Shown: in pieces, positions 5,225-61,316 of the stretch
Layout: every line of letters begins with the position of its first letter
How positions within the stretch are numbered: position 1 is the stretch's first letter
NCBI GenBank assembly: GCA_963665255.1
Contig: OY762210.1
Span: 1,588,631 to 1,652,630, forward strand
From: Dehalococcoidia bacterium
Lineage (GTDB): Bacteria; Chloroflexota; Dehalococcoidia; Lucifugimonadales; UBA1123
DNA length: 64,000 bases
Direction: 5' to 3'
Made by a program: the position numbers and the translations under genes
Notes under the pieces: generated by a model
What the model was told of the DNA's origin: nothing
Seen by the model: only the letters and a program-made list of their open reading frames with translations
Databases searched by the model: none

Positions 5225-5686
5225 TTGGATTCACTGGTTCGGGCTCGAATCGATGAGATGCGAAACGCGCTTTTGAATCAAGGCATTTCCATCACAAGGC
5301 GCAGGGACAAGATGCTTCAGGCACTTGCCTCTAATGATCGCCATCCCAGCGTCAACGAGCTCCATGCAGAAGTGAGACGCTGGTATCCCTCCACCAGCCT
5401 GGCCACCATCTACAACACCATTGAGTTGCTGAAGGACGCGGACCAGATACTGGAACTGGAATTCAGTGGATCCGCCAACCGCTATGACGGTAGACGGCCA
5501 CAATCCCATCCCCATCTAATCTGTCTCTCCTGCGAGTCCATTGAAGATATGGATGTCGAGTCATCCCATTCGGACCACCTGGATAGACTCTCTGAAGACA
5601 CAGGCTATCGCCTCGTGCGCCAGCGCACAGACTATTATGGTTTCTGCCCAGACTGCCAGGAGCAGACTGCGGCAGCTTCTGACTGA
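5225..5686 (+). CDS. Fur-family metalloregulator (Fur/Zur/PerR type not resolved)
   Basis: 153 aa. Winged-helix N-terminus (ITRRRDKMLQALASNDRHPSVNELHAEV) and two CxxC pairs (CLSC...CPDC) for the structural Zn site. TTG start preceded by AAGGAG with a 7-nt spacer. Confidence 0.85.
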   Translation: MDSLVRARIDEMRNALLNQGISITRRRDKMLQALASNDRHPSVNELHAEVRRWYPSTSLATIYNTIELLKDADQILELEFSGSANRYDGRRPQSHPHLICLSCESIEDMDVESSHSDHLDRLSEDTGYRLVRQRTDYYGFCPDCQEQTAAASD

Positions 5687-60450: not shown

Positions 60451-60480
60451 AAAGGGTGCGGCTATCTAACCGCACCCTTT
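60451..60480. terminator. Bidirectional rho-independent terminator between convergent genes
   Basis: AAAGGGTGCGG-ctatctaa-CCGCACCCTTT, with an A-tract on one side and a T-tract on the other. Confidence 0.8.
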
Positions 60481-60489
60481 ATGTTTAAC

Positions 60490-61131
60490 CTAGTCTACTG
60501 CGCCCTTTGGCCAGGGTGGCTGAGGGCTTTTGATCTCGCCGACATACGTCCTGCCGCCGAACAGCGACACGAAGCTGTCGAAGACCTCCACTGCTTCGCC
60601 TTCGGGCGGAATGAACGTCTTCATGTAGGCGGTATGTCCGTTCTCGAAGAGGAACGTCGGCGTACCGAAGATGGCGTTCTCCTGCGAGGTGGCTTCCTCG
60701 TGGTCTGCCGCCACTGTTGCCAGCACGTCGGGATCGTCGAGGTCCTTCTTGAACTGCTCGACGTCAAGCCCAGCCTGCTCAGCCAGAGCGACTAGGGGCT
60801 CGTCCTGGTTTAGGGGCATTCGGTCGCCTGCGTGCCTGGCCTTCAGCAGGGCGAGATGGAACTTATCAAATGCCTCGGGATTACCCTGCCTCTTGGCTGC
60901 TTCACCAGCAACCGAGGCCAGCAGTGCCCGCGCTTCTCGAACATCCATCTGTTCCCAGACCTTCCAGTCTGCGTCATTCCTGCTGTTGATCTGCTCTAGC
61001 GAGAAGTGCCGCCAGTTGATCTGTAGGTTGTCTCCGTACTCCTGCTTGACCTGATCCAGCCACACGGCTGCATTGTAGACCCACGGTCAAGCGTAGTCGT
61101 ACCACACATCCACTTTGACTTGGTCTGCCAT
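60490..61131 (-). CDS. DsbA-family (Rv2466c/Mrx-2-like) thiol oxidoreductase with an in-frame TGA at the active-site Cys position; candidate selenoprotein (alternatively a pseudogene)
   Basis: The ORF track has only 60490..61065. In the same frame upstream I read GGAGG (61138..61142), 6 nt, ATG (61129..61131), MADQVKVDVWYDYA, TGA (61087..61089), then PWVYNAAVWLDQ... The total of 642 nt is divisible by 3. The C-terminal GTPTFLF... motif is typical of the thioredoxin fold. Confidence 0.6.
61047..61089 (-). other. SECIS-like mRNA hairpin starting at the in-frame UGA
   Basis: mRNA numbering from the U of UGA: 1-5 UGACC pairs with 39-43 GGUCA, 9-12 GGUC pairs with 34-37 GAUC, and 20-24 CAGCC pairs with 29-33 GGCUG. 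The apical loop is GUGU. Confidence 0.45.
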
Positions 61132-61316
61132 TTTCCGCCTCCAGTTGTGTTTACCGTCCGGATGCGCCCACGAGGCACATCCTACTTTGCGGCATTGTAT
61201 CATTCTTGGCCTAAACGCGCAGTCCATACCGATGTTAAGGCTTGCCGCGTCCCGAGCGGTTAGACGACAATGTCATTCGGGCAGTTGCTCACGGGACAGC
61301 TCAGGAGGGACACCGC

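What the first reader, a model, noticed from the sequence alone, without database searches (positions are those of the whole stretch)
60490..61142. In-frame UGA at the catalytic-Cys position of a DsbA/Rv2466c-type oxidoreductase: candidate selenoprotein missed by ORF calling
The ORF track reports only a 191-aa GTG-start ORF (60490..61065), which lacks any thioredoxin-fold active site. Reading the same frame upstream gives a strong SD (GGAGG, 61138..61142), a 6-nt spacer, ATG (61129..61131), 14 codons (MADQVKVDVWYDYA), one TGA (61087..61089), and then PWVYNAAVWLDQVKQEYG continuing into the known ORF. The stretch across the TGA looks like the beta1 strand plus active-site turn of mycoredoxin-2/Rv2466c-type DsbA proteins, which I recall as ..[21 protein letters not shown]... 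This places the TGA where the nucleophilic Cys of C-P-W-C belongs. The motif here is U-P-W-V, with no resolving Cys. The mRNA can also fold into a 43-nt hairpin beginning at the UGA, with stems 1-5/39-43, 9-12/34-37 and 20-24/29-33 and an apical loop GUGU 25-28 nt from the U of UGA. As I recall, this is the geometry of bacterial SECIS elements such as E. coli fdhF. TGA is an ordinary stop elsewhere in the window (dcd and the Nudix gene), so a global codon reassignment is unlikely. The predicted GTG start of the truncated ORF lies inside the apical loop.
Basis: partly seen in the sequence, partly recalled or inferred. Interest (0 to 1): 0.8.

Follow-up and report, generated by a model that had tools for sequence, protein, structure and literature searches.

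The report
Missed selenocysteine DsbA-like gene in SAR202
A gene annotated everywhere as a truncated 191-residue "DsbA family protein" is really a 213-residue enzyme whose single catalytic residue is selenocysteine, encoded by an in-frame UGA; the finding is correct, but this kind of selenoprotein is already known.

Summary
On the minus strand, GGAGG, ATG (61131..61129), 14 codons, TGA (61089..61087) and the 191-aa ORF form one 213-codon frame. Adding the 22 N-terminal residues raises the Pfam DSBA score from 38.6 to 63.3 bits and restores strand beta1 and the active site.

- All 84 gene copies in 80 Dehalococcoidia/SAR202 species carry TGA at this column. Natural homologues carry Cys there.
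- Codons upstream of the TGA show coding-type periodicity. DNA 5' of the ATG does not.
- A 21-nt element 13-33 nt after the UGA (AAU GCA GCC GUG UGG CUG GAU) is frozen even at wobble positions. It folds into a 5-bp stem with a GUGU loop and meets every published bacterial SECIS criterion.
- Divergent Cys-form homologues have lost this element.

The protein has no other Cys, so it is a one-Sec DsbA-like oxidoreductase. Its closest solved relative is the uncharacterised single-Cys DR2335.

Sec machinery could not be checked in this genome. However, Dehalococcoidia MAGs are documented as selenoprotein-rich, and one related genome also carries a SelW-like UGA gene.

The motif D-x-x-U-P matches the catalogued "DsbA-like protein form 2". 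This is a new member of a known kind, of moderate interest.

The parts
61138..61142 (-). Shine-Dalgarno GGAGG, 6 nt before the ATG
   Evidence: Read directly from the sequence. There is a conservation bump at codons -18..-16 across species.
60490..61131 (-). Full coding sequence of the 213-residue DsbA-like selenoprotein (ATG 61131..61129, Sec-UGA 61089..61087, TAG stop 60492..60490)
   Evidence: Translation. Pfam DSBA scores 63.3 bits over profile positions 2-175, against 38.6 bits over 21-175 for the truncated ORF. tblastn matches cover residues 1-213 in related genomes.
61090..61131 (-). N-terminal 14 codons (MADQVKVDVWYDYA) encoding strand beta1 and the active-site turn; missed by gene callers
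   Evidence: Conserved as protein in 80 species. Position 1/2/3 conservation is 0.74/0.79/0.51, like the downstream coding region, against 0.37/0.40/0.43 5' of the start. In the AF2 model of Cys-form P0053, strand 4-10 precedes Cys14.
61087..61089 (-). In-frame UGA read as selenocysteine (residue 15), at the N-cap of helix alpha1
   Evidence: TGA in 84 of 84 copies. Cys (TGC/TGT) sits at this column in full-length homologues. Two database entries read W here, i.e. TGA translated as Trp.
61054..61074 (-). Conserved SECIS core: AAU GCA GCC GUG UGG CUG GAU, folding as AU-(G.G)-CAGCC-GUGU-GGCUG-AU. The apical stem-loop proper is 61057..61070.
   Evidence: Synonymous-site entropy is 0.10-0.49 bits here, against 0.9-2.3 bits elsewhere. 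Third-position conservation is 0.96 against 0.55. The element is 98.4% paired, with 11 pair-preserving single changes and one compensatory U-A to G-C change. It folds alone at -9.1 kcal/mol, z = -2.9.
61044..61092 (-). Full hairpin in this genome, including two lower stems that enclose the UGA
   Evidence: Minimum-free-energy fold at -23.1 kcal/mol. The lower stems are only 73% and 81% paired across species, so they are probably not essential.
60652..60669 (-). F-G-T-P-T-F, the cis-proline loop of the thioredoxin fold (residues 155-160)
   Evidence: Invariant in alignments A1 and A3. It directly precedes strand 162-165 in the model. The cis conformation itself is inferred from the fold family.
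60502..60540 (-). Invariant C-terminal tail G-E-I-K-S-P-Q-P-P-W-P-K-G (residues 198-210); role unknown
   Evidence: Invariant or nearly invariant. Low model confidence. DR2335 aligns up to R-P-x-P.
60451..60480 (-). Strong hairpin 10 nt after the stop codon, between convergent genes; likely a terminator
   Evidence: Folds at -26.7 kcal/mol, z = -7.8, with 0 of 200 shuffles as stable. The consensus terminator scan did not flag it because there is no T-run.

Best explanation
This is a genuine selenoprotein gene.

Mechanism of recoding. The mRNA is translated from ATG 61131. At UGA 61089..61087 a SelB-type elongation factor carrying Sec-tRNA(Sec) is recruited by a SECIS stem-loop in the coding sequence. 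That element has a 5-bp stem CAGCC/GGCUG and a GUGU loop, with 21 nt between the UGA and the loop. Selenocysteine is inserted instead of termination, giving a 213-residue cytoplasmic DsbA-like thioredoxin-fold protein.

Mechanism of the protein. Sec15 sits at the N-cap of helix alpha1, next to the cis-Pro loop, and is the only redox-active residue; the protein contains no Cys. The protein therefore most likely acts as a monoselenol oxidoreductase. The selenolate attacks a disulfide, mixed disulfide or oxidised substrate. The resulting selenenylsulfide is then resolved by an external thiol rather than by an intramolecular Cys.

Shown here: the read-through frame, the Cys/Sec alignment, purifying selection on both sides of the UGA, RNA-level selection on the hairpin, and the fold.

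Inferred: SelB dependence, actual selenium incorporation, and the chemistry and substrate.
For: - Frame and signals are present as described.
- The DSBA profile match extends to profile position 2 and gains 25 bits with the extension.
- Nearly all database homologues, from 97% down to about 55% identity, are truncated at the same point. The few full-length ones have A-C-P-[WYF]-V-Y-N with Cys at the UGA column.
- 80 of 80 species representatives and 84 of 84 copies have TGA.
- Coding periodicity continues upstream of the UGA and stops at the ATG.
- Synonymous sites are frozen over codons +5 to +11, forming a stem-loop that is 98-99% paired, with only pair-preserving changes and one compensatory change.
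- All four published bSECIS criteria are met (for the criteria; for the energies).
- Divergent Cys-form homologues keep the amino acids NAAVWLD but lose the frozen codons. Close Cys forms retain them as a fossil.
- TGA is a normal stop elsewhere in the window.
- Lineage-level Sec use: two Dehalococcoidia MAGs hold 46 and 49 selenoprotein genes in BSepDB, and L074 also carries an Rdx/SelW CxxU gene with UGA.
- Fold: AF2 model of the Cys form has pLDDT 90.7, with Cys at the alpha1 N-cap. The best structural match is single-Cys DR2335.
Against: - No selA, selB, selD or tRNA-Sec was found in the window or in about 1.6 Mb of related flanks. That is only about 0.6% of each genome, so the test is uninformative rather than negative.
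- The one SAR202 single-cell genome analysed in 2016 scored negative for Se traits, but it was incomplete.
- The hairpin fold of the single sequence is not statistically unusual (z = -1.88).
- Almost no double compensatory changes exist, because the element hardly varies. The structural argument therefore rests on conservation more than on covariation.
- No Rfam SECIS family matches.
- The function is entirely inferred. The closest solved relative has no known function.
Confidence: 0.9

Rival explanations
1. The UGA is decoded, but as Cys, Trp or another standard amino acid. This could occur through a tRNA-Sec-like tRNA-Cys(UCA) delivered by a SelB paralogue, or through near-cognate read-through. 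The product would then be a 1-Cys rather than a 1-Sec protein.
For: SelB-dependent Cys insertion at UGA by selC* tRNA-Cys exists in some bacteria. Sequence analysis alone cannot distinguish Sec from Cys at a SECIS-directed UGA. Cys forms of this protein are evidently functional.
Against: selC* genes were reported in Firmicutes, Thermodesulfobacteria, Nitrospirae and Proteobacteria, not in Chloroflexi, whereas tRNA-Sec of the 8/4 type was reported in Chloroflexi. Dehalococcoidia MAGs are listed with 46-49 selenoprotein genes and the Sec pathway. Maintaining TGA plus a SECIS in 84 of 84 copies merely to insert Cys, when TGC is one mutation away, is hard to explain. TGA is a normal stop for 10 of 44 long ORFs, which excludes global reassignment.
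Confidence: 0.04
2. There are two separate translation units: a 14-codon leader peptide ending at UGA, and an independently initiated 191-residue protein from GTG 61065. The hairpin would then be a regulatory element, for example for translational coupling or attenuation.
For: Gene callers choose the GTG start. The GTG lies in the loop of a conserved hairpin.
Against: The 14 codons align to strand beta1 and the active-site turn of Cys-form homologues and of the DSBA profile. The 191-residue product would lack the active site. There is no SD before the GTG. The GTG is GTT in L059 and L060. Callers pick different false starts in different species.
Confidence: 0.02
3. The gene is a pseudogene, or the TGA is a sequencing or assembly error for TGC/TGT.
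For: A single in-frame stop near the 5' end is what a nonsense mutation would look like. One close pair differs only as TGA against TGC (L080 and L087).
Against: TGA appears in 84 of 84 copies from 80 independently assembled species, many of them long-read complete chromosomes. There are no other frame disruptions. Purifying selection acts on both sides of the TGA.
Confidence: 0.01

Closest known systems
DsbA-like selenoprotein 'form 2' (PF01323, Sec motif DxxUP), listed in Table 1 of Zhang et al. 2026 (PMC13188914), citing Peng et al. 2016
   Same: Same Pfam domain and same Sec motif. Here the motif is D-Y-A-U-P, with D at -3 and P at +1 invariant in 80 species. There is one Sec and no CxxC.
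   Different: Identity with the representative MDP6049977.1 could not be checked. [quoted passage not shown] DxxCP-type motifs are also generic to cytoplasmic DsbA-like proteins (FrnE, Rv2466c, DR2335), so the motif match alone is not proof.
DsbA-like selenoprotein 'form 1' (UxxC; Sargasso Sea, Zhang et al. 2005, PMC1088965)
   Same: A DsbA-like fold with Sec replacing the N-terminal nucleophilic Cys, found in marine bacteria, with a SECIS immediately downstream of the UGA.
   Different: Form 1 keeps the resolving Cys (UxxC). This protein reads U-P-W-V and has no Cys anywhere.
DR2335 of Deinococcus radiodurans (PDB 7DK9; C24S mutant 7DKA), a single-Cys DsbA-like protein
   Same: Best sequence match among solved structures (E = 4.8e-13 over residues 4-205) and best fold match (TM 0.72-0.78). 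It has a single Cys in F-D-F-L-C-P-Y aligned to the Sec, and a similar C-terminal R-P-x-P.
   Different: Only about 25% identical. It has Cys rather than Sec and lacks the PQPPWPKG tail. Its function is unknown: 'no experimental data' per PMC8945050.
Rv2466c / mycoredoxin-2 and FrnE (cytoplasmic DsbA-like reductases with CPWC)
   Same: Same superfamily and the same beta1-turn-alpha1 active-site architecture (D-x-x-C-P-W). Detectable homology at E around 3e-5.
   Different: They have a CxxC dithiol motif, and FrnE also has a C-terminal CxxxxC. The Pfam Rv2466c-like model scores 24.0 bits, below the 27 cutoff.
Bacterial SECIS elements (consensus model of Zhang and Gladyshev; E. coli fdhF as archetype)
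   Same: A stem-loop within the coding sequence just 3' of the UGA, with a small apical loop starting G-U, spacing inside 16-37 nt, and energy below -7.5 kcal/mol.
   Different: Only a minimal 5-bp (plus 2) apical element is conserved. Its sequence is nearly invariant across 80 species, unlike the sequence-diverse SECIS elements of most families. No Rfam model matches.

Membership tests
Bacterial selenoprotein gene (UGA-Sec recoding) | In-frame UGA aligned with Cys in homologues | tested here: met
   Cys sits at the UGA column in P0053, P0080, P0086, P0100 and P0118, encoded by TGC or TGT. TGA is present in 84 of 84 other copies.
Bacterial selenoprotein gene (UGA-Sec recoding) | Coding conservation on both sides of the UGA | tested here: met
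   Position 1/2/3 conservation is 0.74/0.79/0.51 upstream and 0.78/0.83/0.55 downstream. There is no periodicity 5' of the ATG.
Bacterial selenoprotein gene (UGA-Sec recoding) | bSECIS: 3-9 nt apical loop, 4-16 bp upper stem, G in the first two loop positions, 16-37 nt from UGA to loop, MFE <= -7.5 kcal/mol (criteria from PMC13188914) | tested here: met
   GUGU loop, 5-bp stem plus 2 flanking pairs, 21 nt spacing, and -9.1 kcal/mol (core) or -23.1 kcal/mol (full). Conserved in 80 species.
Bacterial selenoprotein gene (UGA-Sec recoding) | selA, selB, selD and tRNA-Sec present in the same genome | not testable with these tools
   None was found in the 64-kb window or in the flanks. The apparent hits are a DgaE-like lyase and an AIR-synthase relative. 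Whole genomes cannot be scanned. Lineage-level support comes from BSepDB and the L074 SelW-like UGA gene.
Bacterial selenoprotein gene (UGA-Sec recoding) | Selenium shown in the protein | not testable with these tools
   This requires 75Se labelling or mass spectrometry.
DsbA-like thioredoxin-fold family (PF01323) | Profile match above the curated cutoff | tested here: met
   63.3 bits against a 25.6 cutoff, covering profile positions 2-175 of 191.
DsbA-like thioredoxin-fold family (PF01323) | Thioredoxin fold with inserted helical domain; nucleophile at the N-terminus of alpha1; cis-Pro loop | tested here: met
   AF2 model of Cys-form P0053 has pLDDT 90.7, with strand 4-10, Cys14 and helix 15-34. 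The top 50 fold matches are all DsbA-like. G-T-P-T is invariant.
DsbA-like thioredoxin-fold family (PF01323) | CxxC dithiol active site | tested here: not met
   The motif is U-P-W-V and the protein has no Cys. Cys forms read C-P-[WYF]-V.
Rv2466c / mycoredoxin-2 family (PF22234) | Profile match above the cutoff, and a CPWC motif | tested here: not met
   24.0 bits against a 27 cutoff. There is no second Cys.
DsbA-like selenoprotein form 1 (UxxC) | UxxC motif | tested here: not met
   The position is occupied by Val, giving U-P-W-V.
DsbA-like selenoprotein form 2 (DxxUP) | PF01323 domain with a DxxUP Sec motif | tested here: met
   The motif is D-Y-A-U-P. D(-3), U and P(+1) are invariant in 80 species.
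DsbA-like selenoprotein form 2 (DxxUP) | Sequence homology to the representative MDP6049977.1 | not testable with these tools
   The accession cannot be retrieved here. No NCBIfam model exists for this family; the best hit is Rcas_1661 at 24.7 bits against a 190 cutoff.

The most novel reading that the evidence does not exclude
This may not be the catalogued 'form 2'. It could be an uncatalogued selenoprotein subfamily that is near-universal in SAR202/Dehalococcoidia, among the most abundant bacteria of the dark ocean. Its features would then be: a strictly monoselenol DsbA-like active site, an invariant PQPPWPKG tail, an ancestral operon with RNase III, and an almost sequence-invariant minimal SECIS that reports the recognition code of the lineage's SelB. 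Its chemistry would differ from any characterised DsbA-like enzyme.
Probability: 0.2. Interest if true: 0.55.

Novelty: new member of a known kind. Interest (0 to 1): 0.4.

Why it matters
- **Annotation.** In every public record retrieved here, Sec-form genes of this family are either called as a truncated ~185-196-residue 'DsbA family' protein lacking its active site, or, in two cases, read through with Trp at the UGA. No NCBIfam model exists that would rescue it. Functional and selenium-demand inferences for a very abundant marine lineage are therefore biased.
- **A clean SECIS example.** The element is minimal and nearly invariant, it comes with natural Sec-to-Cys conversions that either retain or lose it, and it could serve to train SECIS predictors for Chloroflexota.
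- **Function.** Single-Cys/Sec DsbA-like proteins, including the crystallised DR2335, have no known function. The use of Sec argues that the residue is a catalytic nucleophile under strong selection.

None of this overturns current understanding.

Tried and rejected
1. tRNA-Sec search with ARAGORN in the window and in L001-L060 found none. Chloroflexi tRNA-Sec can have an unusual 8/4 shape, and the DNA sampled is tiny.
2. tblastn of E. coli SelA, SelB and SelD against the window plus 80 loci gave only a DgaE/'selA_rel' lyase (SelA model 47.9 bits against a 267.9 cutoff) and an AIR-synthase relative (SelD model 84.7 bits against 125). Neither is Sec machinery.
3. A hairpin-anchored scan for other UGA genes gave 27 candidates, all off-frame translations of conserved genes.
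4. A scan of window genes for 5' or 3' extension across a TGA found only this gene to be credible.
5. A codon-usage-filtered scan of all held DNA recovered the DsbA-like genes, three tandem paralogues and one SelW-like gene.
6. The repeated 'RFRRNGR-TGA-GCAMLL' in L075 turned out to be three tandem small genes with true TGA stops.
7. Rfam, at gathering and at permissive thresholds, gave no SECIS match.
I modelled the natural Cys form P0053 instead.
9. Neighbourhood analysis for function found no conserved partner in the window's clade.
10. The Peng 2016 main text and supplements gave no detail on the DxxUP form.
11. A global UGA reassignment was rejected because 10 of 44 long ORFs end in TGA.

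Full report
**What is in the sequence**

On the minus strand, GGAGG (61142..61138) is followed after 6 nt by ATG (61131..61129). Then come 14 codons (MADQVKVDVWYDYA), TGA (61089..61087) and, in the same frame, PWVYNAAVWLDQ... down to TAG at 60492..60490. The mechanical ORF list contains only the 191-residue GTG-start ORF 60490..61065.

With the 22 extra N-terminal residues (U written as C), the Pfam DSBA match rises from 38.6 to 63.3 bits. It also extends from profile positions 21-175 to 2-175. The upstream stretch therefore supplies the missing first strand and active site.

**Comparative evidence for read-through**

A search of 5.8 billion proteins returned 539 relatives. Almost all of the best 120, from 97% down to about 55% identity, are 185-196 residues long (two are shorter fragments) and begin at or just after the hairpin.

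The few full-length relatives read ...DYA-C-PWVYNAAVWLD..., with Cys exactly at the TGA column and no second Cys. Two others read W there, which is the signature of a gene caller translating TGA as Trp.

- Every one has TGA at this column.
- Three loci have a tandem paralogue that also has TGA, giving 84 of 84 copies.
- The 11 codons upstream of the TGA show conservation at codon positions 1/2/3 of 0.74/0.79/0.51.
- Codons +12 to +30 show 0.78/0.83/0.55.
- The DNA 5' of the ATG shows 0.37/0.40/0.43, with no periodicity.

Translation therefore runs through the UGA. A pseudogene or a sequencing error is excluded.

TGA terminates 10 of 44 long ORFs in the window, so the codon is not globally reassigned.

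**The RNA element**

On one sequence this is not unusual: z = -1.88, and 8 of 200 shuffles fold as well.

The comparison across species is decisive. Over codons +5 to +11 (AAT GCA GCC GTG TGG CTG GAT; 61074..61054), synonymous-codon entropy falls to 0.10-0.49 bits, against 0.9-2.3 bits elsewhere. For example, Leu+10 is CTG in 79 of 80 species, while Leu+21 and Leu+30 each use five or more codons. Third-position conservation there is 0.96.

RNAalifold keeps only the apical helix CAGCC/GGCUG with its GUGU loop.
- That helix is paired in 99.5% of cells.
- It carries 10 A-U to G-U changes and one G-C to G-U change, and only two sequences break one pair.
- Two further A-U/U-A pairs flank a G.G mismatch. 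This explains the frozen wobble bases of AAT and GAT.
- The 7-pair element is 98.4% paired and contains one compensatory U-A to G-C change, in three related species.
- Alone it folds at -9.1 kcal/mol, z = -2.9.
- The two variant sequences (L059, L060) keep a 4-bp stem and a 6-nt loop with G at the second position.

The two lower stems are only 73% and 81% paired and are probably dispensable.

The published bacterial SECIS model requires a 3-9 nt loop, a 4-16 bp upper stem, G in the first two loop positions (usually followed by G or U), 16-37 nt between UGA and loop, and MFE <= -7.5 kcal/mol (PMC13188914). All of these are met: GUGU loop, 5 (+2) bp, 21 nt, and -9.1 or -23.1 kcal/mol.

A natural control supports the SECIS role. 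The Cys-form homologues keep the amino acids N-A-A-V-W-L-D.
- Two divergent Cys lineages have lost the frozen codons. L085/L086 read AAC ACC GCG GTC TGG CTC GAC, and L088 reads AAC GCA GCT GTT TGG TTG GAT.
- Three Cys forms that nest close to TGA forms retain the element as an apparent fossil. L087 is 94.7% identical to TGA-bearing L080.

Rfam has no matching family.

**Does the lineage use selenocysteine?**

I could not scan whole genomes.
- The window and 60 loci contain no tRNA-Sec.
- tblastn with E. coli SelA, SelB and SelD found only a DgaE-type lyase and an AIR-synthase relative, both far below the SelA and SelD cutoffs.
- The DNA held is about 0.6% of each genome, so this result says nothing either way.

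Indirect support comes from three sources.
- BSepDB lists two Dehalococcoidia MAGs, with 49 and 46 selenoprotein genes, among the ten richest bacteria. One belongs to the same UUID-named MAG series as my loci.
- Chloroflexi tRNA-Sec has been described.
- L074 carries the DsbA-like TGA gene and also encodes an Rdx/SelW-family protein (Pfam 53.3 bits) with TGA at the canonical CxxU position behind a good SD.

An incomplete SAR202 single-cell genome scored negative for Se traits in 2016.

**What the protein is**

It has no signal peptide, since strand beta1 starts at about residue 5, and no Cys.

The AF2 model of the Cys form P0053 is confident (pLDDT 90.7, pTM 0.87). It places the Cys at the N-cap of helix 15-34, directly after strand 4-10. 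This is the classical thioredoxin-fold nucleophile position. F-G-T-P-T-F, the cis-Pro loop, is invariant.

The best sequence and fold match among solved structures is DR2335 of Deinococcus radiodurans, a single-Cys DsbA-like protein (E = 4.8e-13; TM 0.72-0.78). No functional data exist for it (PMC8945050). FrnE, SCO1869 and Rv2466c are more distant, and the Pfam Rv2466c-like model is below its cutoff at 24.0 against 27 bits.

I therefore infer a cytoplasmic monoselenol oxidoreductase whose selenenylsulfide intermediate is resolved by an external thiol. The substrate is unknown. The invariant C-terminal tail GE[ILV]K[RS]PQPPWPKG is unexplained.

**Context**

In the window the gene stands alone on its strand. 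A divergent luciferase-like oxidoreductase lies on one side and a convergent zinc-type dehydrogenase on the other. A strong hairpin follows the stop codon (-26.7 kcal/mol, z = -7.8). This arrangement holds only in the closest clade.

In 53 of the 58 more distant loci, and in 4 of 5 Cys-form loci, RNase III follows directly on the same strand. That appears to be the ancestral arrangement.

**Comparison with what is known**

DsbA-like selenoproteins were described in the Sargasso Sea in 2005 with a UxxC motif. A 2026 review tabulates a second form: PF01323, motif DxxUP, one Sec. Our D-Y-A-U-P fits it. [quoted passage not shown]

No NCBIfam model covers the family. In every public record retrieved, a Sec-form gene is either truncated or, in two cases, read through with Trp at the UGA.

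**Verdict**

- **Observation:** confirmed.
- **Interpretation:** supported, with three corrections. The protein is not Rv2466c-type. Only the apical hairpin is conserved. The kind is already known.
- **Novelty and interest:** a new, still mis-annotated member of a known kind of selenoprotein; interest 0.4.

Noticed in passing
L023-L080 (about 580-900 nt after the TGA, same strand); also L083, L084, L087, L088: RNase III (rnc) lies directly downstream of the DsbA-like gene in 53 of 58 more distant loci and in 4 of 5 Cys-form loci, with gaps of 0-50 nt. This suggests an ancestral operon. The window's clade (L001-L022) has lost the linkage.
   Followed up: partly
L083:1501-2151, L084:1501-2136, L087:877-1509: Cys-form (TGC) homologues retain the exact SECIS apical sequence GCAGCCGTGTGGCTG. 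L087 is 94.7% identical to TGA-bearing L080. These look like recent Sec-to-Cys conversions with a fossil SECIS.
   Followed up: partly
L085/L086:1500-2943: In a Krumholzibacteria-labelled contig, the Cys-form gene is followed on the same strand by a glutaredoxin and an AhpC/Prx peroxiredoxin. This is the only neighbourhood that hints at a thiol-redox role.
   Followed up: no
L048 (TGAs at 2129 and 2914), L056 (7634 and 8593), L057 (10037 and 10835): Tandem paralogues of the DsbA-like gene, both copies with in-frame TGA and the conserved hairpin.
   Followed up: partly
L074:5182-5463 (minus strand; TGA at 5415..5413): An Rdx/SelW-family gene (MVANGTVNVEIVYCVP-U-AHHG...; Pfam Rdx 53.3 bits) with TGA at the CxxU position and a good SD. 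It is a second recoded gene in a genome that also carries the DsbA-like Sec gene.
   Followed up: yes
window, whole (44 ORFs of at least 200 aa): Stop-codon usage is TAG 22, TAA 12, TGA 10 at 57% GC. TGA is the least used stop and TAG the most used.
   Followed up: no
window 60451..60480: A perfect long hairpin (-26.7 kcal/mol, z = -7.8) between the convergent DsbA-like gene and the zinc-dehydrogenase gene. It is probably a bidirectional terminator, although it lacks a T-run.
   Followed up: partly
L075:9225-9821: Three tandem copies of a small gene (about 60-75 residues, MLL[AV]AHII...RFRRNGR*). Each ends in TGA, with the next copy's SD and ATG 8 nt later. It looked like read-through but is ordinary.
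   Followed up: yes
L024, L026, L027 (14050-15195, minus strand), L035: A DgaE/'selA_rel'-family PLP enzyme lies about 4.4 kb from the DsbA-like gene in four loci. It is a SelA homologue by fold only, not selenocysteine synthase.
   Followed up: yes
window 60502..60540 (residues 198-210): The C-terminal tail GE[ILV]K[RS]PQPPWPKG is invariant across the whole family, including the Cys forms, but is modelled with low confidence. Its role is unknown.
   Followed up: no
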